Assembly: GCA_963664395.2 (NCBI GenBank)
Contig: OY761159.2
Location: 3,808,001-3,872,000 of the forward strand
Direction: 5' to 3'
Length of the DNA stretch: 64,000 nt
DNA from: Candidatus Binatia bacterium
Lineage (GTDB): Bacteria; Desulfobacterota; Binatia; Bin18
The position numbers and the translations under genes are program-made. The notes beneath the pieces are model-generated. The model had not been told where the DNA came from. It made no database searches and worked only from the letters and a program-made list of their open reading frames with translations. Positions within the stretch are counted from its first letter, which is position 1; every line of letters begins with the position of its first letter. Below are positions 13,211-62,425 of the stretch, piece by piece.

Positions 13211-14080
13211 CTATTGGCTACTCCCTCGTGCCGTGCCCGGACTTTGCAAGTATTCCAGCAGCTCTGAGTTGGAATTGAGGACTAAGGTTGTATCGCTACT
13301 CAGGATCTTCTCATACGCCTGGAGCCGACGGGTGAAGGCGTAGAATTCTGCATCTTTGCCAAAAGCGTTAGCATAAATACTGGTCGCCTCAGCATCGCCT
13401 CCCCCTTTGAGTTTTTCACTCGTCTCATACGCCGTGGCAAGGATCACTTCCCGTTCCCGGTCCGCTACCGCTCGCAGCTGTTGAGCTTGCTCTTCCCCCT
13501 CCGCCCGGTATCGCTTGGCAATGCGTTCCCGCTCCGCCCGCATCCTGGCGAACACGCTGGCCTGCACTTCGTCGGGCAGGTCGAGTCGCTTGATGCGAAC
13601 ATCGGTTACCTCAATCCCAAAGGTCTTGGCCGTCTCACGCGTAGCCTTGGTCACGGTTGCCATAATCTCTTCACGATTCTCGCGAATCAGATCGAGGAAA
13701 TCGTGCGTCGCTATTTCTTGCCGAAATCGGGCGGCAATCATGTCATCCAAGCGCGCCACTGCTCGTATTTGATCTCGTACGCTGCGATAGTATTGGAGGG
13801 GGTCTTGAATACGCCAGCGTGAGACATGATCGACGAGGACGCGTTTCTTATCAAGCGTAATGTATTCGGCCGCACGCGCATCGGTTGTGAGCACGCGCTT
13901 CTCAAAGCGCACCAGATTCTGGATACCGGGCAGCTTAAAATAGAGTCCCGGCTCTTGGATGATACGTTTGGGATTGCCAAACTGGACAACCATGCCTTGC
14001 TCCCACTCGCCAATGGTGAAGACGGTCTGCGTAGCAACAACGACAAAGACTAATCCCAATCCAACCAGTAATCGTGTCAT
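13211..14080 (-). CDS. hflC: Protease modulator HflC (SPFH family)
   Basis: PGLYFKLP, DVRIKRLDLP, RMRAERERIAKRYRAEGEE and FYAFTRRLQAY motifs. Confidence 0.92.
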   Translation of the reverse strand: MTRLLVGLGLVFVVVATQTVFTIGEWEQGMVVQFGNPKRIIQEPGLYFKLPGIQNLVRFEKRVLTTDARAAEYITLDKKRVLVDHVSRWRIQDPLQYYRSVRDQIRAVARLDDMIAARFRQEIATHDFLDLIRENREEIMATVTKATRETAKTFGIEVTDVRIKRLDLPDEVQASVFARMRAERERIAKRYRAEGEEQAQQLRAVADREREVILATAYETSEKLKGGGDAEATSIYANAFGKDAEFYAFTRRLQAYEKILSSDTTLVLNSNSELLEYLQSPGTARGSSQ

Positions 14081-14184
14081 CCTCTATCTCCATCTGATGG
14101 GCTGCCCCCTCTAGGGATTACTCCCAATGCTCAGGAAGCCGGCGCGTTCTTTCAACAAGAGATTCGTTTCGGACAGGTAAGTGA

Positions 14185-14344
14185 CGGACCTCCGCGTTGG
14201 GGGGGACGACCCCTCCACGCGGTGAGGCGTCATAAACCGGTCAACGATGGAGGACAGCGACTTAGTGCGGTGGATAAAGCGTTAAGCGGAGATCGCCCAA
14301 GGTTGGCTCATTCACCCTCCTCCTGTGTTGGAGTGCTGTCAAGG
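14185..14344 (-). promoter_or_regulatory. Repeated promoter-leader cassette, copy 1 (upstream of hflC)
   Basis: TTGACA (14342-14337), N17, GAGGGT, then blocks shared with copies 2 and 3. Confidence 0.8.
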
Positions 14345-14654
14345 GGAGAGTCGACGGACGTTGACGGATACGGTTTCTATCAGATGCCGGTAGTCTTTCT
14401 TTCTCCTAGCAATGGGAGGAATGGATTTATGACCTTCCGAAAAGTCCGGCAAGGGACAGGGCGTCGAAGGGCCGTCCAGAGGAAGGTCCAATTCTTCGGG
14501 TGGAGTAGGGAGGAGACAGCAGGCGGGTTTGACCCTGCCTCACAAAGTGAGACAGGGGGACTCTTATTTAATCATCGTCCTCGTCGCCATCCATCTCTTC
14601 AAAAGCGACAAGTATACTCTTACGGAAGCGGTTGGACAGCTCCGCTTACCTGCA

Positions 14655-14957
14655 CTACCAACGCCGCTCGCGACCGCCACCGGATGAGCGATTCCCTCCT
14701 GAGCGTGGCTCGCGAGGTTTTGCCTCGTTGACCTTCAAGGCTCGGCCTTGGAGCTCATAGCCATCGAACTGCTCGATGGCCGCTTGGGCTTCGCTTGCGC
14801 TCCCCATCTCGATAAACCCAAACCCACGCGAGCGACCAGTGTCTCTATCCATAATGATATTGGCGGACGTGACGGTCCCGGCCTGACCGAACAATGTCTC
14901 GAGGTCAGGAGTCGTCGTCTCAAAGGAGAGATTACCGATATACAAATTCGTTGCCAT
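14655..14957 (-). CDS. RNA-binding protein, single RRM with Gly/Arg tail
   Basis: RNP2 LYIGNL and RNP1 RGFGFIEM; GGAGG RBS. Confidence 0.95.
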   Translation of the reverse strand: MATNLYIGNLSFETTTPDLETLFGQAGTVTSANIIMDRDTGRSRGFGFIEMGSASEAQAAIEQFDGYELQGRALKVNEAKPREPRSGGNRSSGGGRERRW

Positions 14958-15284
14958 ACAAACCTCCATGCGAATATGAAAAGGCCCCAAGAACCACGAG
15001 TGCAGTTCCAGGGGCCTTGGCAATCTCGAACTAAACTCAGCGAACAAACAAAGTCAACTATACGTTTGTGATTAGCAGACTCTTAGTCTGGACACAAGCC
15101 ACGCAGGAGACTGGCTCAGCCATGACAATCCGGTCCACGCTGGCGTCCTGATTGGTAGCAGCCCCTCGGGCCGGTCAAAGTGACTCATCTTCGTCCTTGA
15201 GGGATTTACGATAAGGTTGGGGACAATGCTTGCCAGCGTTTCCTTTTCTCCATGCAGCCTCGACGTGACAGTGTGTGTTCTTGC

Positions 15285-15905
15285 TTAGACGACCCAGGCG
15301 AACGAGGTTGCCTCAGCAGGCAGAGGTTGCTCCTCTCGTCTCGTTCCTACAGGAAACGTGGACGAAGTAGGCTGGGCGTATCCACGCGGCAGGCCGGTAC
15401 GGATAAAATCCGGATCAAGATCGAGATACGAGCAGATACTCTCAAAGGCGTATAAGTGGTCCGTATCCCGTGCCCAAATCCACTCTTGGACCTCGCCGAA
15501 CAACCGTTGCCCCCGCCGCGTGTGGGCCTGGCAATATCTGTGGTAGGTATGGATCGCTTCCTTGAGGACTGCCAGTAACAGGCGTCGCTCTCCGGTCCAC
15601 ACCGCCAGCGATTCCCGAGCCGGGAGAGCAAACTGGTCTGGTGTTAAGATGTCCTGCTCCCATGGGGAGCGCTTCAAGCTCCTCGCACTTGGAGAACCCG
15701 TGGAACCTTGGCCAGAGGGTGGACTAGAGACAGACGTGCTGTTTGGGACGAGTTTGATTGTATCGGTAGCCGCGGCAATAGTCGGCTCCTCGTCGATGTC
15801 GTATCCCTGCGGCGGCTTTCCTTCGTTGCCGTCCACGTATGGAGGAATAGTGGAGCCGAGTTCTTTCAGTAATATATCCACTTTGGGCAGAGAGTCTTCT
15901 GACAC
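15285..15905 (-). CDS. Hypothetical protein, possible helical DNA-binding C-terminal domain
   Basis: GTG start after AAGGAG; P/S-rich N-half, then GERRLLLAVLKEAI...EVQEWI...FESICSYLDLDPDFIRTGL. Confidence 0.75.
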   Translation of the reverse strand: MSEDSLPKVDILLKELGSTIPPYVDGNEGKPPQGYDIDEEPTIAAATDTIKLVPNSTSVSSPPSGQGSTGSPSARSLKRSPWEQDILTPDQFALPARESLAVWTGERRLLLAVLKEAIHTYHRYCQAHTRRGQRLFGEVQEWIWARDTDHLYAFESICSYLDLDPDFIRTGLPRGYAQPTSSTFPVGTRREEQPLPAEATSFAWVV

Positions 15906-16066
15906 AACCGGAGCTCCTTGTCGAGGAAAGGGACACCTCCACACGGTGAGACGTTATAAACCGGTCAACAATGGAGGATGGCTGCTTAGTGAGAAGGAAG
16001 AAAATAAGCGTAAATCGCCCATAATTGGCCCGCTCACTCTCCTCCTATGCCGGAGTGGTGTCAAGG
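15906..16066 (-). promoter_or_regulatory. Repeated promoter-leader cassette, copy 2
   Basis: TTGACA (16064-16059), N17, GAGAGT, then a conserved leader ending at the GTG start at 15905. Confidence 0.8.
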
Positions 16067-16148
16067 GTAGGGCTGGCGAAGGCTGACGGATAGGAACCGG
16101 TTAAGAGACCGGGGCTATGCCAGCAGCATAAGGTGAAACCGTAACTTT

Positions 16149-16187
16149 CAGTGGCACCCAACAGTGGCACCCAACAGTGGCACCCAA
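16149..16187. repeat. Tandem repeat, 13 bp x3
   Basis: CAGTGGCACCCAA, three perfect copies. Confidence 0.95.
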
Positions 16188-16347
16188 GGAGGGAAAAACT
16201 ATGCGAGAGGAGGGCTGAACCATTTCAGCAAGGGAAATGTAATTGAGCGGAACACGGCCCGCTCGGTCAATCTTCTTCGCCATGCTGGCCCTGAGTGCAA
16301 GGCTGCCCATTGTCGTGAAAATACGACTCTGTGGTGCAATTCATTCG

Positions 16348-18309
16348 TTACTCCCCTAGAGCATGAAATTTCTCTACATAGAGCAGGACTGCCCAAACAA
16401 ATGCCGAGTGACTCCAGGTGAGCGGGGATACTGAAAGGGTATCCCCTTTTATGGGATGTACCTGCTCGGCCAGTACCCCTGAAGGAAGCGCATTCTTCGC
16501 GCACCATTCAAGGTACGGGAGCGCTTCGTGCAGTTGCTGAAGATTCTCTGTCCGCATGATTTCATATTCTCCTAACCAGAGCGTCGAGATAAACCAGGGA
16601 TTACCGGGAACATCCTGCGGAACGTCATGCGCCCGTTGATACTGGTTATTCTGATAGCGCGCGACCCCCCCGATTGGAGTATGCGACAAGAGATTGCGCC
16701 GGATGGCCTCGACCGTCTTAACGACCCGGGCATCCCTCGGAGGTAACACGCCGAAAGTCACCAGTCCGAGCAGGCTGACGTCAATGACTTCGTCAAGTAC
16801 ATAGCCGTTCGCAGTGCGGTACCCCGAGCGGGCATATCTTTGATACTCGGCATGGTACAGATGCTCGACAATGCCCTCCGTCATGTGATCGGCTACAGCG
16901 TTATACGCCTCCGCGCGGGACGAATCCTGAAACACGCTTGCAAAATGTGCTGCCCCGCGGAGGCCACTGATGACCGCCGCGACGGTATACGTGTGGACGC
17001 CGTACCGCTCTTCCCACAGGTCGTAGGAAGGCGTAGGCAAAAGAGTCTCCGCATCTCGATACGCAACCAGAAAATCTGCACATTTGAGAATAAATGTCTC
17101 GTACAGGGGACGGATGAACTCAATATCCTTTGAGCACTCGTAGTGAATCCAGAGGGCCCACAACAGCAATGCCGTCGAGTCTTCCTGGATGGGTAAAACC
17201 TCTTTGCCATCTAACACCCACGCATGCCAATTGCTGGCCAGCGACCCGTCCGGGTTATAGTGTTGAAAGAGATAGCCGCCTTCTGCAAGCGCCCGGCTAC
17301 AAAAGTTGAAGAATTGCCTACACAGCTCGGCATAGCCGGCCTTCTCCAGCGCGGCCGCGACAAAGGCGCCATCGCGGCCCCACATATAGGAATACGTGTC
17401 TCCGCCAAACCGCACGATGTCCGAATCATTGGCCGCGATAATGGCGCCCCGGTTGTCGATCTGAGAGCGTAAGACGAGCAGGCTGCGGTTGAAGATATGG
17501 GTAACGGTCGGTGGCAAGTCTCCAAAAGGGCGCGCTTCTTTTTGGACCCAGGCCCGCCAGTAGTTTGACGTTCGCTCAATCAGTGCTGGCGGTGTGTGTT
17601 CGACAACACGCCTATTGAGATCTGCCACTTCGTCGTAGTGCGTGCCGGCGGCCAGCCAGTAAAATGCGCTGCCGTTTCCCCCCGGAGGGAGTGCTAACTG
17701 TGCCCCAACAGTAGACTCGGCATATCCCCAAGCAATCGGACTCCCGACGAGTTCGCCATCTTCCGCGTCTTTCCAGGAAGAGGGCCTTCCTGCCGCGTCC
17801 TTCACGCCGCAGGAGAAATAATCGGCTACTTTACTTACCGCTGTACAACAATTGGCGAGGAAATAGCGGTTGAGCTTGTAGTGGATAATGGACTCGGTCC
17901 GCGGATCAAAATACGCTGTATCACCGATCTCGTGACCATACAGGTGAAAGTCATGGCTAAAAAAAAGCCGGACGTCTCGAGCGCGCTCCGCCAAATCTAT
18001 GACCTGGATATGCTTGACATACACATTCAGCTGGAAATCAACAGCATCCTGACAGCGTAGCGCTAAGCCTAACCTCTCGTGTTTCAGAAAGGTCTCGGTT
18101 ACGAGGCTATCATCTCGATACCGGAGGTCTTTTTCCCACTCCGGTCCCATCCAGGCGAAGCAACCATCTACCCAAATGCCGAATCGAAACTCATGGCCCT
18201 GCGTATGATTCTCTTGCCCTATCCAGGGAAAGTAGATGTCACGGATGCGGTAATCCAGGTCAAAATTGACCAGAAGATTTCCGTTGCTGACCGGAATGTC
18301 TCTGGGCAT
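16348..18309 (-). CDS. Glycoside hydrolase family 15 (glucoamylase/trehalase-like)
   Basis: GAIIAA, YSYMWGRDG, YDLWEE, LAEQV and PLTWSH motifs; start MPRDIPVSNG. Confidence 0.92.
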   Translation of the reverse strand: MPRDIPVSNGNLLVNFDLDYRIRDIYFPWIGQENHTQGHEFRFGIWVDGCFAWMGPEWEKDLRYRDDSLVTETFLKHERLGLALRCQDAVDFQLNVYVKHIQVIDLAERARDVRLFFSHDFHLYGHEIGDTAYFDPRTESIIHYKLNRYFLANCCTAVSKVADYFSCGVKDAAGRPSSWKDAEDGELVGSPIAWGYAESTVGAQLALPPGGNGSAFYWLAAGTHYDEVADLNRRVVEHTPPALIERTSNYWRAWVQKEARPFGDLPPTVTHIFNRSLLVLRSQIDNRGAIIAANDSDIVRFGGDTYSYMWGRDGAFVAAALEKAGYAELCRQFFNFCSRALAEGGYLFQHYNPDGSLASNWHAWVLDGKEVLPIQEDSTALLLWALWIHYECSKDIEFIRPLYETFILKCADFLVAYRDAETLLPTPSYDLWEERYGVHTYTVAAVISGLRGAAHFASVFQDSSRAEAYNAVADHMTEGIVEHLYHAEYQRYARSGYRTANGYVLDEVIDVSLLGLVTFGVLPPRDARVVKTVEAIRRNLLSHTPIGGVARYQNNQYQRAHDVPQDVPGNPWFISTLWLGEYEIMRTENLQQLHEALPYLEWCAKNALPSGVLAEQVHPIKGDTLSVSPLTWSHSAFVWAVLLYVEKFHALGE

Positions 18310-18316
18310 GACTTCC

Positions 18317-19555
18317 TTACGGGGTGAGGTGCCACTGACGGAGTGGCACATTGAGTGCCAAGGGCTGTCCGACCGAGCTAAACACGGGTCTGGGGGCGAG
18401 TTGCTCATACAAGGCGGCGTACCCCTCGGCCATTCTTTGAATGGAAAAATATGTTTTGACGTGCCTCCGACAATTCCAACGATTAATCTGTTCGATGCGT
18501 CCGACCGCCTGCACCATAGCCTCGACTGAATCCACGACAAACCCGGTCTCTCCATGTTTCACGATCTCAGGAACAGAGCCTTCGCCGAACGCCAGGACGG
18601 GGGTGCCAGACGCCATTGATTCAATCAAGACGAGCCCAAAAGGCTCACCCCAGCGGATCGGGAATAGGGTTGCCTGTGCGTGCCGATACCAGTGCTTCGT
18701 CGCCGCAGTGTCGAGTTCTCCAATATAGATAATCTGTTTGTCAGAGGACAGGAGCGGCTTCATCACCCTGTCGTAATAGTCGCCATTTACAGGCTGTTGG
18801 CCAACGTCAACAGTAAGATCAATCGAGTGCTGCAAACGCGTAAAAAAGGCCCTGTCTTCTTTCTTGTTCTGGACGCAGCCGGCAAGGATCAGCTTTGCTC
18901 CAGACTGTTTCGCCACTGCTATGGCGAGATCCTGTCCCTTGACCTCGGCGATCCGTCCAATGCTGAAAAGATAATTCCCCCTATTCGATTCTTTTTTGAA
19001 TAAATAGTCTTCCACGTCTATCCCGTGCGGGACGGTTTTCGTCACCGGCAGCAGGCCAGTATACTGCCGTCTCTGATAATCGCTTATCGCAACGCAATGC
19101 AGCAAAGGGCGCGGCAATGGACCGGGGTGCTGCTCATGGAACTCAGGGACACCGCTGTACTGACCGGGTACGTGCAGAGTCATCACGATGGGCACGGGCG
19201 AATGAAAGCTGCCCGTGTACACGCGATTAAACCATTCGTGCATATGTATGATGTCGATGTCACCCATCTGCGCGCGCGCCAACGCCTGTGAGAGATGGCG
19301 ATCAACCAGAGCCTGTCCCTCCGGGGTATCTACGTGGCAATAGTTGCCAAGGCTGTGCGCAACGGTCTCGTACTTTTCACCGGTCACTGTAGACTCTGCA
19401 GAGCACGCCACGATTGACCGGTGTCCAAGGGCATGAAGACCTTTATCAATATTGTAAATGACTGCTTCTATAGGGCCATAACCGCTCTGGGACGTAATCG
19501 GCTTACTGAGGGTCGCCACGTGCAGAATAGTGAACCGTTTCGATGCTGCGGGCAT
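18317..19555 (-). CDS. Glycosyltransferase family 4
   Basis: GRIAEVKG and EPFGLVLIESMASGTPV motifs; 7 nt upstream of the GH15 gene. Confidence 0.92.
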   Translation of the reverse strand: MPAASKRFTILHVATLSKPITSQSGYGPIEAVIYNIDKGLHALGHRSIVACSAESTVTGEKYETVAHSLGNYCHVDTPEGQALVDRHLSQALARAQMGDIDIIHMHEWFNRVYTGSFHSPVPIVMTLHVPGQYSGVPEFHEQHPGPLPRPLLHCVAISDYQRRQYTGLLPVTKTVPHGIDVEDYLFKKESNRGNYLFSIGRIAEVKGQDLAIAVAKQSGAKLILAGCVQNKKEDRAFFTRLQHSIDLTVDVGQQPVNGDYYDRVMKPLLSSDKQIIYIGELDTAATKHWYRHAQATLFPIRWGEPFGLVLIESMASGTPVLAFGEGSVPEIVKHGETGFVVDSVEAMVQAVGRIEQINRWNCRRHVKTYFSIQRMAEGYAALYEQLAPRPVFSSVGQPLALNVPLRQWHLTP

Positions 19556-19879
19556 ACTTTTGCTATCCTCCTACCGCTCGATATGAGCGCGTCGTTGTCA
19601 GGGGTTTCCGCTTCAGTTCTGGCACGCACGACGAGAAGGGGCTGGTCGCTTTGCGCCACTATCCCTGTGGGTCCGCCCATACGGGAATGTCATTGCTCTC
19701 CCCGCGGAGAGGGTTCCAATGGGGTTGTCGACTCTGGGGTTGTCGACTCTGGTGTTCTCGCCACCCGGTCTGTTATGACCGTCTCCGGCGGTGAACGGTT
19801 TAGGACAAGAGCGGAACACCCGGGTTGGGGCGCAGCGTAAGACATATTTTTACGCTGCACGTCGTTTGTCTTAGTGTGG

Positions 19880-20167
19880 TCAGAATGAGAGGGTTCCCGT
19901 CGGGAGCGGGGAGTACAAGCTGAGCTCACTCCGTGTCACGTTCACGAGCGCCACAAGGAGTAACCATCCCCACCGCTGGCCTGAAGCGCCATCGCGGTCC
20001 AGTGGTCCTGCTCCGTCAGCGAGCAGCTCAACTGTGGCGAGAGCCTGACGTAACCGGAGACCGGCTGTTTGTATAACGGTTTTGTCATTTCTCGACCCGC
20101 GCGCCTGACGGAACCGGTCGAGTTCTTCACGGAGAGAAACCACTCGGGACAGAAAATCTTCTGTCAT
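19880..20167 (-). CDS. Hypothetical protein
   Basis: 95-aa ORF from ATG 20167 with AGGTGG upstream; no known motif. Confidence 0.4.
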   Translation of the reverse strand: MTEDFLSRVVSLREELDRFRQARGSRNDKTVIQTAGLRLRQALATVELLADGAGPLDRDGASGQRWGWLLLVALVNVTRSELSLYSPLPTGTLSF

Positions 20168-20427
20168 ACCTACCACCTTTCTTAAGTGAAGGACGCCTGC
20201 GGGCCGCGAGGTGTCAGCCACTGGTAAGCAACAATGGATGATAGGTACGTATGGGATGGGAAACGTATGGGGTACGGACCGTCCAAGGCTGGTAGGAGCA
20301 CCCTCGTCTCAATACGCCTGCTTGTCAAGCGACACAAAAGATTTTCTCAGATAGGAGAATACTTATGGGAGAGATGTTCATCTTATATCGGGTACAGCTA
20401 TCACTTTATACGATATTTTAAGAGTCG

Positions 20428-20590
20428 CCTTGACACGGCGACGGCTCAGGCGGAGAGTGGTTAAGCCAACCCTGGGTGATCCCGGCTTACATCTTTTCCC
20501 GTCACACTAAGCAGCTATCTTCCATTGTTGACCGGTTTTTGACTCCTCACCGTGTGGAGGTGTCGCTTTCTCCGACACGGAGGTCCGGTC
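20428..20590 (+). promoter_or_regulatory. Repeated promoter-leader cassette, copy 3
   Basis: TTGACA (20430-20435), N17, GAGAGT (20453-20458), then a conserved leader and GGAGG before ATG 20591. Confidence 0.8.
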
Positions 20591-20671
20591 ATGTCCGTCA
20601 ACGCTCTGTCCAAAGCGCATAATGGGGTGCCCCCTCTGGCGCGTGCTCTTCCTGATCTGGCTCTCCTCTAA
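20591..20671 (+). CDS. 26-aa leader peptide or truncated paralog of 15285-15905
   Basis: MSVNALSKAHNGVPPLARALPDLALL; good RBS; N-terminus resembles MSEDSLPKV. Confidence 0.4.
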   Translation: MSVNALSKAHNGVPPLARALPDLALL

Positions 20672-20917
20672 TGACTCCGGCTAGCTCCTGTAGAGGTACA
20701 CTATGTCTATCCCGACTATGCTGTTCGCGAGCTGGCGATATTTCCGGGCAAAATTCAACCTGGATGACCACCAAAAGTGTAGCCGCACGTACTGCGCCAG
20801 AGGGCCTGCATTGACATTATTTCATCGCTGCATGCCACGGGAGAAAATCCGTGCCGAGAAAGCGACCTCTGAAACGACAGCAGTGTTGAATGGTTTTTCA
20901 CTTTGGGAGACACTAGC

Positions 20918-21238
20918 ATGAACGAGGGAGAGGCAGGATTATTTGTGGGGATAAAAATCTCACCGCGGCTACAGAGGGAGTTGGATAACTGTAACCGTGG
21001 GACCGAGCGCTACCTCAAAGAGGGTCAGCCCGAGGCGCTCAAGATTGTGACTCTGGGGAGGGACAAGCTTATTGGCCGGTTCTTGCGAGACGGATTCCCC
21101 GTTAGTGGCCTCGATAATGTCAGTCGTAATGTTCGCAGCGTCGTCACACGCATGACTCAGGGGCTCCGGTTAGCGGAGGATGCCGTCTGTATATACGCCG
21201 ACTCCACCGTTCCTCTATCACCTTTGGGACACGAGTAA
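20918..21238 (+). CDS. Hypothetical protein
   Basis: 106 aa; GGGAGA RBS; 5 nt before the SPFH gene. Confidence 0.7.
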
Positions 21239-21243
21239 CCGAT

Positions 21244-22038
21244 ATGTTCGGCATAGGGCCACTCGTAATATTCTTGGTCATCGCGGTCGGATTACTGATT
21301 GGCGGGGTGAAGATTCTCCAGGAGTATGAGCGCGCGGTTATTTTCCGCCTTGGACGGTTCGTGCCCTACCGCGGACCTGGGATTATCTACGTGATCCCCC
21401 TCGTGGAGCGCATGGTCAGAGTAGACTTGCGCACCATCACCATGGACACCCCTCCGCAGGACGTGATCACCCGTGATAATGTCTCGGTCGAGGTGAACGC
21501 GGTGCTCTACTTTCGGGTGCTTGATCCGGGCAAAGCGATCGTAGAAATCGAGAACTATCTCTTTGCCACTGCGCAGTTGGCGCAAACCACTCTGCGCAGT
21601 GTGTGCGGTCAGGCGCAGCTCGACGATCTACTGACGAACCGCGATAAGATTAACGCCCAACTACAGGATATTATTGATTCCCAGACCGACCCCTGGGGAG
21701 TGAAGGTGTCTCTGGTCGAGGTCAAGAATATTGACTTGCACCAGGACATGCAGCGGGTGATTGCCAGACAAGCGGAGGCGGAACGCGAACGCCGGGCCAA
21801 GGTCATCAACGCTGAGGGAGAATTCCAGGCGGCGCAACGGTTGGCCGACGCGGCACTGATCATCGAGCTGCACCCGGTTGCGCTCCAGTTGCGCTACCTC
21901 CAGACTCTCTCCGAAATCGCGACAAAGAATAACTCGACCATCCTGTTCCCTATACCAATTGATGTGCTTCGGCCTTTTCTTGGTAGCCTGGGCGGATCGT
22001 CATCACCCGGCGACTCGACCGATAGTGCAACCACGTAA
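21244..22038 (+). CDS. Stomatin-like SPFH/slipin protein
   Basis: [44 protein letters not shown] and [10 protein letters not shown] motifs. Confidence 0.95.
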
Positions 22039-22182: not shown

Positions 22183-22255
<73 letters not shown>

Positions 22256-61863: not shown

Positions 61864-61937
61864 CGGGGCGTAGCGCAGCCTGGTAGCGCACCTGCCTTGG
61901 GAGCAGGGGGTCGGCCGTTCAAATCGGCTCGCCCCGA
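61864..61937 (+). tRNA. tRNA-Pro(TGG)
   Basis: Cloverleaf; anticodon arm CCTGC-CTTGGGA-GCAGG. Confidence 0.96.
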
Positions 61938-61994
61938 TACGACGTTACGGTCAGGAGGAAAAACCCAATGCCCCTGACCGGCTAGGTCTTGAGG

Positions 61995-62068
<74 letters not shown>

Positions 62069-62071
62069 TAG

Positions 62072-62145
62072 GGTGGGTGTAGCTCAGTCGGTAGAGCACT
62101 GGGTTGTGGTCCCAGGAGTCGAGGGTTCAATCCCCTTCACCCACC
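62072..62145 (+). tRNA. tRNA-His(GTG)
   Basis: G-1/C73; anticodon arm CTGGG-TTGTGGT-CCCAG. Confidence 0.96.
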
Positions 62146-62237
62146 TCTTCCCTTCCCTCTATATCATGATTCTCTAGCTGACGAATGCTGCCGTGGCTCC
62201 AGTTGCCATGACCAAGAATAGTGGTTATGGTGCCCGT

Positions 62238-62310
<73 letters not shown>

Positions 62311-62340
62311 CCGCCCTTGGCTGGGGCATATGGGAGAGTG

Positions 62341-62425
62341 GCGAGAGTGGCGAAATTGGCAGACGCGCTAGACTTAGGATCTAGTCCGCTTGTAGCGGAT
62401 GGGGGTTCAAGTCCCCCCTCTCGCA
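62341..62425 (+). tRNA. tRNA-Leu(TAG)
   Basis: Anticodon arm CTAGA-CTTAGGA-TCTAG; long variable arm. Confidence 0.96.

What the first reader, a model, noticed from the sequence alone, without database searches (positions are those of the whole stretch)
14185..20590. Three diverged copies of an unrecognised ~160-nt promoter plus structured 5' leader cassette
Seen: copies at 14185-14344(-), 15906-16066(-) and 20428-20590(+). All read CC-TTGACA-N17-GAGRGT ... GCCAA ... TGGGYGAT ... GCTTA-(pyrimidine-rich loop)-CACTAAG ... TCYTCCATYGTTGACCGGTTTWTRACKYCTCACCGYGTGGAGG-KGTC ... GGAG, leading to the start region. Loop and spacer sequences vary while these blocks are kept. CTTA/TAAG and CYTCCAT/GTGGAGG can pair in all copies, and TGTC/GACA in two. 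The CYTCC anti-SD could pair with either the internal GGAGG or the true RBS. Copies 1 and 2 also share TATCCGTCA exactly 19 nt upstream of the -35 box. Inference: a candidate new cis-regulatory RNA (thermometer, riboswitch or protein-bound switch) behind a promoter with a non-consensus -10, possibly bound by the RRM protein encoded between copies 1 and 2. I do not recognise it as a known RNA family.
Basis: partly seen in the sequence, partly recalled or inferred. Interest (0 to 1): 0.82.

Follow-up and report, generated by a model that had tools for sequence, protein, structure and literature searches.

The report
Repeated structured mRNA leader in Binatia
A promoter plus a roughly 125-base folded mRNA leader, not in any RNA family library, sits in front of five different genes in this uncultured sponge-associated bacterium and probably controls their translation by alternately hiding and exposing the ribosome-binding site.

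Summary
The genome holds five copies, not three. Four are in the window; the new one is at 20170-20297(-). The fifth lies elsewhere on the chromosome, in front of a 35-aa membrane peptide.

With that peptide it is conserved as a single copy in 23 of 101 related genomes, in two genera of Candidatus Binatia. No convincing copy was found elsewhere. No Rfam family matches.

All five copies fold alone into the same irregular 5' hairpin, P1. Its loop varies from about 8 to 23 nt, and a second hairpin, P2, follows.

Column-wise covariation is weak because the sequence is nearly invariant. The invariant 3' strand of P1 is complementary to each copy's own Shine-Dalgarno and start region. This match is lineage-specific: the true pairing ranks 3rd of 720 permutations. 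In 8 of 9 leaders that alternative fold is predicted to be 4-7.5 kcal/mol more stable than the P1 fold.

Best reading: a new cis-acting translational switch built from three parts. The ribosome site is masked by a complementary strand, and that strand is in turn masked inside P1. The trigger is unknown.

Metatranscriptome contigs cover the leaders and stop at +7 to +16. The proposed RRM-protein link is untested. The ancestral copy occurs in genomes that lack that RRM paralogue.

The parts
14362..14370 (-). Upstream motif TATCCGTCA of copy c1, 19 nt before the -35 box
   Evidence: Read. Kept in the c1-type orthologues listed.
14314..14342 (-). c1 promoter-like site: TTGACA (14342-14337), 17-nt spacer, GAGGGT (14319-14314)
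   Evidence: A simple sigma-70 scan does not call it because the -10 hexamer matches only 3 of 6.
14186..14311 (-). c1 leader: P1 hairpin, ACCGGUUU linker, P2 hairpin and an SD-like GGAGG whose start codon has been lost
   Evidence: CM R1, 131.9 bits. P1 is the MFE fold of the isolated segment. RNA contigs cover 14138-14301 and 14006-14292.
13211..14080 (-). hflC-like SPFH gene, the first intact ORF after c1. Its SD region GAUGGAG is complementary to CUCCAUC in the c1 block.
   Evidence: TIGR01932 hflC, 241.6 bits against a cutoff of 134.4. Duplex energy -16.8 kcal/mol.
14655..14957 (-). RRM-type RNA-binding protein gene (100 aa) between c1 and c2. It has its own, different leader.
   Evidence: Pfam RRM_1, E 9.8e-21. 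Orthologues at >= 95% identity occur only in the 7 island genomes.
16084..16092 (-). Upstream motif TATCCGTCA of copy c2
16036..16064 (-). c2 promoter-like site: TTGACA (16064-16059), 17-nt spacer, GAGAGT (16041-16036)
   Evidence: RNA contigs from two studies stop at 16015 and 16014, which is 14-15 nt after the predicted start of about 16029.
15906..16033 (-). c2 leader (P1, linker, P2, SD AAGGAG)
   Evidence: CM R1, 127.3 bits. P1 is the MFE fold. Cognate block:TIR duplex -18.3 kcal/mol.
15285..15905 (-). c2 gene: a 206-aa protein of unknown function with a GTG start (MSEDSLPKV...)
   Evidence: No Pfam or NCBIfam family. The Atlas lists only hypothetical Binatota clusters.
20300..20328 (-). 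c5 promoter-like site: TTGACA (20328-20323), 17-nt spacer, GAGGGT (20305-20300)
20170..20297 (-). c5 leader, a diverged fourth copy in the window. P1 is kept, with a different apical stem (CGUA/UACG).
   Evidence: nhmmer E 1.1e-6. CM R1, 91.9 bits. MFE fold. UACCUAUCAUC pairs with GGUGGUAGGUA of its own TIR over 11 bp, -18.3 kcal/mol.
19880..20167 (-). c5 gene: a 95-aa protein of unknown function (MTEDFLSRV...). It shares only about the first 16 residues with the c2 protein.
20430..20458 (+). c3 promoter-like site: TTGACA (20430-20435), 17-nt spacer, GAGAGT (20453-20458)
   Evidence: An RNA contig starts at 20480, 15 nt after the predicted start of about 20465.
20461..20590 (+). c3 leader (P1, linker, P2, SD GGAGG)
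   Evidence: CM R1, 142.2 bits. P1 is the MFE fold.
20591..20671 (+). Short ORF of 26 codons directly after c3 (MSVNALSKA...). It is also present in G021.
20703..22038 (+). Genes downstream of c3: a ferritin-like gene truncated here to 72 aa, a 111-aa ORF, and an SPFH/Band_7 gene (21244-22038)
   Evidence: G021 has an intact 249-aa version, with weak Ferritin/Rubrerythrin/EncB hits. Band_7, E 4.9e-38. RNA contigs carry 644 extra letters at 20775.

Best explanation
Each copy is a transcription unit head. It consists of a sigma-70-like promoter (perfect TTGACA, 17 nt, weak -10 RANRGT) followed by a roughly 125-nt 5' leader that acts in cis on translation initiation.

The leader can adopt two mutually exclusive folds:
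- Fold A is a long irregular 5' hairpin, P1. Its stems are CCAAC/GUUG, UGGG/UCCA, GAU/AUC and GCUUA/UAAGC, around a pyrimidine-rich loop. A hairpin P2 follows.
- In fold B, the 3' strand of P1 (..AUCCUCCAUYGUUG..) and the linker (UUGACCGG) leave P1. They pair with the copy's own Shine-Dalgarno/start region and with a downstream CCGGU segment. The freed 5' strand makes a small hairpin (GGGCG-N5-CGCUU).

So the 3' strand of P1 is an anti-TIR (TIR = translation initiation region: the Shine-Dalgarno site plus start codon). The 5' strand of P1 is an anti-anti-TIR.

P1 is made first during transcription, which would leave the ribosome site more open. The thermodynamically favoured state is the closed one. 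What decides between the two states is not known. Candidates are the kinetics of refolding, which could be temperature-dependent as in cspA mRNA, a protein, or 5' processing.

Shown here: the copies, their conservation, their presence in RNA contigs, the shared P1 fold and the cognate complementarity. Inferred: transcription start, switching, and the effect on translation.
For: 1. Copies and spread.
- There are five copies in the genome.
- 23 of 101 related genomes carry the element. These fall only in genus g1 (18 of 27) and genus g3 (4 of 8).
- 70 matches give 42 distinct sequences.
- The copy on C1 at 2.28 Mb is the widespread single-copy form. It always sits with a 35-aa peptide gene. The peptide was found strongly (E <= 6.9e-11) in 14 of 201 class genomes, all of them in g1 or g3.

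2. The same P1 fold is the MFE of the isolated segment in all 5 own copies. RNAalifold also gives it as the consensus for 17 orthologues.
- 95.3% of cells are paired, against 36-63% when the partner strand is slid.
- Length changes are confined to the apical loop, including a deletion in G012 that leaves the stem intact.
- c5 keeps an apical stem with a different sequence.

3. The block pairs best with its own TIR.
- Cognate duplexes are -15.7 to -18.3 kcal/mol in 5 of 6 lineages.
- The true assignment ranks 2nd of 720 permutations, and 3rd of 720 when the real hflC TIR is used for c1.
- It beats composition-matched shuffles at p <= 0.032 in 5 of 6 lineages.
- Against 1500 genomic GGAG-bearing TIRs, p is 0.003-0.049 in 4 of 6 lineages.

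4. With either fold enforced, fold B is 4-7.5 kcal/mol more stable in 8 of 9 leaders. It equals the free MFE in 4 of 9.

5. RNA contigs from 4 metatranscriptome runs (3 studies) cover the leaders contiguously with the downstream genes. They end at +15 or +16 (4 ends) or +7 (1 end) of c1, c2 and c3.

6. Within genus g1 the first 126 nt are 91% identical. The upstream intergenic DNA is 75% identical, and third codon positions of the neighbouring gene are 88% identical.
Against: - Column-wise covariation is weak. Only 3 of 23 pairs change on both sides (143 of 500 shuffles do as well). P1 stems vary only by one-sided, wobble-compatible changes.
- P1 alone is not unusually stable: z-scores are -0.26 to -2.77.
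- Copy c3 does not fit. Its cognate duplex is -10.4 kcal/mol (p 0.17 and 0.46), and its P1 fold is 11.5 kcal/mol more stable than fold B.
- For c1 the background test gives p = 0.19.
- The block:TIR registers differ between lineages, so the test rests on duplex energies chosen after seeing the data, across six lineages that share ancestry.
- Even with P1 enforced, the TIR is often predicted to be partly paired.
- The A/B energy gap hardly changes between 15 and 45 C, so there is no equilibrium thermometer behaviour.
- The -10 hexamer fails a simple consensus scan.
- One run's contigs read through both promoters, and contigs give no strand.
- Chimeric c2/c3 leaders suggest gene conversion, which inflates similarity between paralogues.
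Confidence: 0.55

Rival explanations
1. The leader is a platform for a trans-acting factor. That factor could be an RRM protein, another RNA-binding protein, a small RNA or a small-molecule ligand. On this view the near-invariance of the 22-nt block and linker reflects factor binding, not pairing with the ribosome site. The factor would set the expression of the whole gene set.
For: - The block AUCCUCCAUYGUUGACCGGUUU is almost invariant across paralogues and across two genera. That is more conservation than helices alone need.
- The P1 loop is always pyrimidine-rich.
- An RRM gene sits inside the island and travels with it: it is found at >= 95% identity in exactly the 7 island genomes.
- Every genome of the genus has 3-7 RRM paralogues.
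Against: - Nothing tested here shows binding.
- The ancestral copy occurs in at least 11 genomes without the island RRM paralogue.
- Loop sequence and length are free to vary, and most of the loop is deleted in one genome.
- Double duty in two folds already accounts for the conserved bases.
- There is no multi-helix junction with conserved unpaired bases of the kind typical of ligand aptamers.
Confidence: 0.2
2. The leader mainly controls mRNA processing or stability. A discrete cleavage near +16, inside the 5' strand of P1, removes the anti-anti-TIR and commits the mRNA to the closed state or to decay.
For: Four of five RNA-contig ends fall at +15 or +16 of three different copies. They come from three runs of three studies with different library types. 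That position lies in the loop of the alternative 5' hairpin.
Against: Contigs cannot show true ends. Loss of the first 10-20 nt in cDNA libraries, or breaks in the assembly graph at shared sequence, could give the same picture. One contig ends at +7, and one run reads through.
Confidence: 0.1
3. The conservation acts on DNA. The region would be an extended promoter or operator region, or initially transcribed sequence, bound by a transcription factor, and the RNA folds would be incidental.
For: The -35 box, the spacer length and the -10 box are conserved together with the leader. GCTTA...TAAGC and ACCGGT are inverted repeats. c1 and c2 share an upstream TATCCGTCA motif.
Against: - The conserved stretch is about 130 nt long.
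- The distance between GCTTA and TAAGC varies from about 8 to 23 nt. That suits a hairpin loop but not operator half-sites.
- Changes in the P1 5' strand are all pairing-compatible.
- Lineage-specific complementarity to the ribosome site has no DNA-level explanation.
Confidence: 0.07
4. The copies are neutral remnants of recent segmental duplications, homogenised by gene conversion, or they are a small protein-coding ORF.
For: - The duplicated unit includes the first ~16 codons of an ORF (MSEDSLPKV / MTEDFLSRV / MSVNALSKA).
- c1 has lost its start codon.
- Chimeric c2/c3 leaders exist.
- Among the three original copies, substitutions in the block fall mostly in one codon phase (read).
Against: - The single-copy form is conserved across two genera, while its flanks cannot be aligned.
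- It is more conserved than the upstream intergenic DNA.
- No conserved start codon exists.
- Genus g3 changes the would-be peptide completely.
- 1-nt indels occur in the P1 loop (L014, L017-L019), the linker (L023) and the P2 loop (L077).
Confidence: 0.05

Closest known systems
Three-element translational switches (anti-anti-SD / anti-SD / SD), as in the expression platforms of translational riboswitches and in leaders opened by small RNAs
   Same: There are two mutually exclusive folds. An anti-SD strand (CCUCC) is either held in an upstream hairpin or paired with the ribosome-binding site.
   Different: No aptamer-like junction and no ligand are evident. No Rfam family matches. The same cassette serves five unrelated genes. 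The comparison itself is from general knowledge.
E. coli cspA-family cold-shock mRNA 5' UTR (an RNA thermosensor with alternative folds)
   Same: It is a long conserved 5' UTR shared by several paralogous transcription units. Here the fold made first is predicted to be more translatable than the stable fold. According to the abstracts of PMC6386945 and PMC9947658 (abstracts only), cspA mRNA is a thermosensor that adopts a translation-competent conformation in the cold.
   Different: There is no sequence or Rfam match, and the downstream genes are not csp genes. The predicted energy gap between the folds barely changes from 15 to 45 C. Temperature dependence is untested.
ROSE-type RNA thermometers of rhizobia (a conserved ~100-nt element between a sigma-70 promoter and several heat-shock operons)
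   Same: It is a multi-copy conserved leader between a promoter and the start codon, with SD masking. One downstream gene is an hflC-like gene. The ROSE description is recalled, not from a call.
   Different: The SD is not inside a conserved local hairpin with the ROSE signature, and no ROSE family of Rfam matches. Masking is long-range and competes with an upstream hairpin.
Structured 5' UTRs of type I toxin mRNAs (hok, tisB, zorO and similar; recalled)
   Same: The ancestral copy precedes a 35-aa single-helix hydrophobic peptide with a charged tail. Its leader of about 170 nt is predicted to close the ribosome site. The unit is present or absent among close relatives.
   Different: No antisense RNA was looked for or seen. 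The same leader also heads an hflC-like gene, a ferritin-like gene and two unknown genes. The locus is syntenic in the five g1 genomes checked, not scattered.

Membership tests
Any Rfam 15 family | A covariance-model match at the family's gathering score | tested here: not met
   The whole window at gathering score gives only 6 tRNAs. At E <= 10 on 13900-21000 there are 3 chance hits, none on a copy. At E <= 10 on L001, L020 and L009 there are 6 hits, all below gathering. The only one over a leader is on the opposite strand (sR30, E 1.2).
ROSE / heat-type RNA thermometer | SD and start codon inside a conserved, imperfect local hairpin that melts as temperature rises | tested here: not met
   The conserved hairpins P1 and P2 do not contain the true SD. 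The predicted preference for the closed fold persists from 15 to 45 C. There is no Rfam ROSE match.
cspA-type cold-shock 5' UTR | A csp gene downstream; a cold box; alternative folds whose balance depends on temperature | tested here: inconclusive
   There are no csp genes downstream and no Rfam match. Alternative folds are predicted. A kinetic temperature dependence cannot be computed with these tools.
Riboswitch | A ligand-binding aptamer with conserved junction bases and covarying stems, coupled to an expression platform | tested here: inconclusive
   An expression-platform-like alternative pairing is present. Stems show little two-sided covariation. No multi-helix junction was found. Ligand binding cannot be tested here.
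Sigma-70-type promoter | -35 and -10 hexamers at 16-18 nt spacing, and a transcript start about 7 nt after the -10 | tested here: inconclusive
   TTGACA is present in 33 of the 34 sequences listed (TTGAAA in L024), with a 17-nt spacer. The -10 hexamer RANRGT matches 3 of 6, so the simple scan finds 0 sites. RNA contigs end 7-16 nt after the predicted start, but contigs cannot show true ends.
   The widespread form is single-copy in most genomes, and its upstream gene is the same in the 5 g1 genomes checked. Copies always point into a gene. Of 51 genome stretches and 35 metagenome stretches with the exact 18-mer, only the 23 and 4 from this lineage match the model. The rest are at chance level.
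Type I toxin-antitoxin locus (ancestral copy only) | A small hydrophobic toxic peptide plus an antisense or divergent antitoxin RNA | not tested
   The peptide is 35-38 aa with one hydrophobic helix. No search for an antisense RNA was made, and toxicity is unknown.

The most novel reading that the evidence does not exclude
The cassette may be the operator of a small stress regulon run at the RNA level by a dedicated trans factor. The regulon would comprise an hflC-like gene, an SPFH gene, a ferritin-like gene, a membrane peptide and two unknown proteins. The factor could be one of the 3-7 bacterial RRM proteins of this genus, or an unknown ligand. It would bind P1 or the invariant block and decide between the open and closed folds. 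That would make this a new class of bacterial RNA switch and the first defined target set for a bacterial RRM protein.
Probability: 0.15. Interest if true: 0.8.

Novelty: new member of a known kind. Interest (0 to 1): 0.55.

Why it matters
Binatia (phylum Binatota) are uncultured, and searching for 'Binatia' together with 'riboswitch' found no paper. This is a clean candidate RNA regulator for that lineage. It is found in only two genera but is conserved there, is multi-copy, and appears in sponge and other metatranscriptomes. Its layout makes clear mutational predictions.

It also shows how a regulatory cassette spreads. The promoter, the leader and the first ~16 codons were copied in front of unrelated genes, and each copy then re-tuned its complementarity to its own ribosome site.

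If a trans factor is involved, the cassette gives a handle on the largely unknown function of bacterial RRM proteins.

Tried and rejected
- **Coding hypothesis.** In the three original copies, substitutions in the block fall mostly in one codon phase. I rejected this reading. There is no conserved start codon, genus g3 changes the would-be peptide, and 1-nt indels occur in the P1 loop, the linker and the P2 loop.
It is not the consensus fold and is not kept in c5.
- **Equilibrium thermometer.** The A/B energy gap is nearly constant from 15 to 45 C.
- **Wider relatives.**
  - Model R2 on 40 family genomes gave only marginal new hits.
  - The G038 hit lies inside a gene that reads like mraY (my reading; no family search was run), so it is chance.
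  - The G032 hit (L138:394-474) shares 18 of 19 bases with the block but is unresolved.
  - G013, at E 0.04, was not followed further.
- **Exact 18-mer scans.** Outside this lineage, 28 genome stretches and 31 metagenome stretches lack the element. I estimate about 35 chance matches in the genome collection.
- **Column-based covariation for the block:TIR helix.** This was not usable because the pairing register shifts between lineages (read from A7). Duplex energies were used instead.
- **Function of the c2 protein.** Pfam, NCBIfam and the Atlas give nothing.
- **RNA depth.** Differences between the island and the neighbouring glycosyl-hydrolase genes are not used, because contig depth cannot rank genes.
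- **Parts of the window without RNA cover** are not interpreted.

Full report
**1. The observation**

The three copies are at the stated coordinates. They align over about 165 nt with 76% mean column identity, and sequence outside that stretch is unrelated. The shared TATCCGTCA lies 19 nt upstream of the -35 box in copies 1 and 2. The RRM gene lies between them (Pfam RRM_1, E 9.8e-21).

A profile of the three copies finds five places in the 5.04-Mb genome at E <= 1.1e-6, and nothing else below E 1.6. The two extra copies are:
- c5, at window 20170-20297(-), transcribed divergently from copy 3.
- c4, at G000:C1:2280617-2280744(+), outside the window (locus L001).

**2. Known families**

Rfam 15 gives only tRNAs at gathering score for the whole window. 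At E <= 10 on 13900-21000 there is nothing on any copy. At E <= 10 on three c4-type loci there is nothing on the leader strand. The element does not behave like an IS or MITE end (see section 3).

**3. Distribution**

A covariance model of the five copies (R1) matches 23 of 101 related genomes. These fall in genus g1 (18 of 27) and genus g3 (4 of 8), with none in the other 45 genera sampled. That search used the stricter filters.

Most genomes have one copy, the orthologue of c4. It always precedes a 35-38-aa ORF (MFGIPLEA...YRADQKRK) that lies about 45 nt beyond the conserved 126-nt part. A profile of that peptide hits strongly (E <= 6.9e-11) in 14 of 201 genomes of the class, all in g1 or g3. 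Three further hits at E 0.005-0.009 lie inside long open frames and look like noise.

Extra copies occur in 7 genomes: G000, G001, G006, G012, G016, G018 and G021. Only G000 and G021 have all five copies.

Scanning all species genomes for the invariant 18-mer gave 51 stretches. The model confirms 23 of them, with 28 matches at E <= 1.5e-19. All are labelled Candidatus Binatia or Binatota except one labelled Thermodesulfobacteriota. The other 28 stretches lack the element. I estimate about 35 chance matches for that pattern in 596 Gb. In the metagenome collection, 4 of 35 stretches are real.

A second model built from 70 matches (R2) found no convincing new member in 40 genomes of the family. 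One candidate lies inside a gene that reads like mraY. One in genus g6 shares 18 of 19 bases with the block and stays open.

The organism is therefore a Binatia MAG lineage. Runs holding the locus include sponge metagenome libraries. Background on the phylum comes from PMC8262859 and PMC9999580, seen only as search listings and abstract starts.

**4. What follows each copy**

| Copy | What follows |
|---|---|
| c1 | A decayed ORF start with no start codon, then an hflC-like gene 105 nt further on (TIGR01932, 241.6 bits) |
| c2 | A 206-aa protein with no family |
| c5 | A 95-aa protein with no family |
| c3 | A 26-codon ORF, then a ferritin-like gene, a 111-aa ORF and an SPFH gene |
| c4 | The membrane peptide |

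The ferritin-like gene is intact in G021 at 249 aa, with only weak Ferritin/Rubrerythrin/EncB hits.

c2, c5 and c3 share only the first ~16 codons (MSEDSLPKV / MTEDFLSRV / MSVNALSKA), and c1 keeps a remnant of them. BLASTP finds nothing further between the c2 and c5 proteins. So the copied unit was the promoter, the leader and the first codons.

**5. Structure**

RNAalifold on four copies and on 17 c4-type orthologues gives the same 5' hairpin, P1. It consists of CCAAC/GUUG, UGGG/UCCA, GAU/AUC and GCUUA/UAAGC, separated by small internal loops, with a pyrimidine-rich apical loop. An 8-bp hairpin, P2, follows (GACNCCUC...GAGGNGUC).

Each of the five own copies, folded alone over P1, gives this architecture as its MFE. 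Energies are -11.9 to -16.5 kcal/mol and z-scores are only -0.26 to -2.77.

Across 42 distinct sequences, 95.3% of cells are paired. Only 1 of 500 shuffles reaches that, and sliding the partner strand gives 36-63%. However, only 3 of 23 pairs change on both sides (143 of 500 shuffles do as well), and the covariation score is reached by 6 of 500 shuffles (earlier count). P1 stems vary only by A-U to G-U or C-G to U-G changes on the 5' strand.

Three observations give indirect support:
- Indels are confined to the apical loop, which runs from about 8 to 23 nt. This includes a deletion in G012 that keeps the stem.
- c5 replaces the apical stem GCUUA/UAAGC by CGUA/UACG.
- P2 in genus g3 carries a two-sided change.

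Fold A is therefore consistent and conserved, but it is not proven by covariation.

**6. Why the 3' strand is invariant**

The 3' strand of P1 is complementary to each copy's own translation initiation region (TIR). The matching segments are:

| Lineage | P1 3' strand | Own TIR |
|---|---|---|
| c4, genus g1 | CAUCU and AUCCUCC | GGAGGAU and AGGAUG |
| c4, genus g3 | CUCCU-UCUUCC | GGAAGA-AGGAG |
| c5 | UACCUAUCAUC | GGUGGUAGGUA (11 bp) |
| c2 | UUGUUG, CUCC and AAGCAG | CGACAA, GGAG and the start region |
| c1 | CUCCAUC | GAUGGAG at the hflC SD |

Cognate duplex energies are -15.7 to -18.3 kcal/mol, except for c3 at -10.4. The true block-to-TIR assignment ranks 2nd of 720 permutations, or 3rd of 720 when the hflC TIR is used for c1. 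Against 1000 composition-preserving shuffles, p <= 0.032 in 5 of 6 lineages, with c3 at 0.17. Against 1500 genomic GGAG-N5-9-ATG sites, the values are c5 0.003, c4-g3 0.026, c4-g1 0.039, c2 0.049, c1 0.19 and c3 0.46.

The linker UUGACCGG also finds a downstream partner:
- CCGGUCGA in c4 of g1
- CCGGUCA in c3
- CCGGUU in c2

In c5 both sides are changed: CUUA..AGUGG pairs with UCACUUAAG (read).

In fold B the freed 5' strand forms GGGCG-N5-CGCUU. This would explain why C24, which is unpaired in P1, is kept in 5 of 6 lineages.

With either fold enforced, fold B is 4-7.5 kcal/mol more stable in 8 of 9 leaders, and it is the free MFE in 4 of 9. c3 is the exception, with P1 favoured by 11.5 kcal/mol. 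The gap hardly changes between 15 and 45 C.

**7. Expression**

Contigs of four metatranscriptome runs from three studies cover all four window copies contiguously with the downstream genes. Taking +1 as the G of GCCAAC, about 7 nt after the -10, the contig ends are:

| Copy | Run | End |
|---|---|---|
| c2 | X1 | +15 |
| c2 | X5 | +16 |
| c3 | X1 | +16 |
| c1 | X9 | +16 |
| c1 | X5 | +7 |

Run X2 reads through both promoter regions. Contigs give no strand and no true ends. This is a weak hint that transcripts begin at or just before these points. A real end near +16, from processing, cannot be excluded.

The simple sigma-70 scan does not call the promoters because the -10 hexamer matches only 3 of 6. 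The same scan flags the alternative 5' hairpin of c2 plus its U-rich loop as terminator-like. I do not build on that.

**8. Selection**

Among five g1 genomes the first 126 nt of the leader are 91% identical. For comparison:
- rest of the leader: 81%
- upstream intergenic DNA: 75%
- third codon positions of the neighbouring oxidoreductase gene: 88%
- third positions of the peptide ORF: 89%

Between g1 and g3 the leader still aligns while the upstream DNA does not. Chimeric c2/c3 leaders indicate gene conversion among paralogues. Similarity between paralogues therefore overstates selection.

**9. Interpretation**

The best-supported reading is a cis-acting translational control leader built as anti-anti-TIR (P1 5' strand), anti-TIR (P1 3' strand plus linker) and TIR. 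P1 forms first during transcription, and the closed fold is the stable one.

This works like the expression platform of a translational riboswitch, or like the cspA mRNA thermosensor (PMC6386945 and PMC9947658, abstracts only). It is a member of neither.

The trigger is open. The RRM idea rests only on co-location. The island RRM paralogue (>= 95% identity) is in exactly the 7 island genomes. Two further genomes have versions at 85-87%. All 28 genomes of the genus have 3-7 RRM paralogues. The ancestral leader copy exists without the island paralogue.

**10. Limits**

- Supplements of papers were not consulted.
- No raw reads were available, so no start site, strand or expression level is shown.
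- The duplex-energy tests were designed after the complementarity had been seen, and they use six lineages that share ancestry.

Noticed in passing
window 20703-20921 (break at about 20775): The ferritin-like gene after c3 is cut to 72 aa here, against 249 aa in G021. RNA contigs of runs X1 and X2 carry about 644 extra letters at 20775. A contig of run X5 spans the site without them, so both alleles exist in nature.
   Followed up: partly
G000:C1:2280790-2280894 (L001:2291-2398): A 35-aa single-helix peptide (MFGIPLEA...YRADQKKK) always accompanies the ancestral leader copy. It is present or absent among close relatives. Its size, hydrophobicity and closed leader recall type I toxins. No antisense RNA was searched for.
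   Followed up: partly
window 14958-15040(-): The RRM gene has its own leader. It contains a GC-rich hairpin plus a U run (terminator-like hit at 14995-14983) just upstream of its SD. This is a possible attenuator or autoregulatory site.
   Followed up: no
window 16149-16187: A perfect tandem repeat of 13 nt x 3 (CAGTGGCACCCAA) lies about 85 nt upstream of the c2 -35 box.
   Followed up: no
window 19720-19760: A tandem repeat of 15 nt x 2.7. RNA contigs of three runs lack one 15-nt unit, so this is a copy-number polymorphism.
   Followed up: no
genus-wide; for example G000:C1:2827358-2827975: Every genome of the genus carries 3-7 RRM-domain paralogues, some as adjacent pairs. That is an unusually large set for a bacterium.
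   Followed up: no
L138:394-474 (G032, genus g6): A short element with UCUUCCAUUGCUGACCGGU (18 of 19 bases of the block) and a much reduced P1, upstream of an ORF whose TIR is GAGAAGAAGGAU. It may be a distant relative or may be chance.
   Followed up: partly
L024 (G019:C1:699264-699387): A degenerate c4-type copy (36 bits with R1). The peptide ORF starts with ATA instead of ATG, so it is probably decaying.
   Followed up: no
window 61864-62425 and 22183-22255: A cluster of five tRNA genes and one separate tRNA gene.
   Followed up: no
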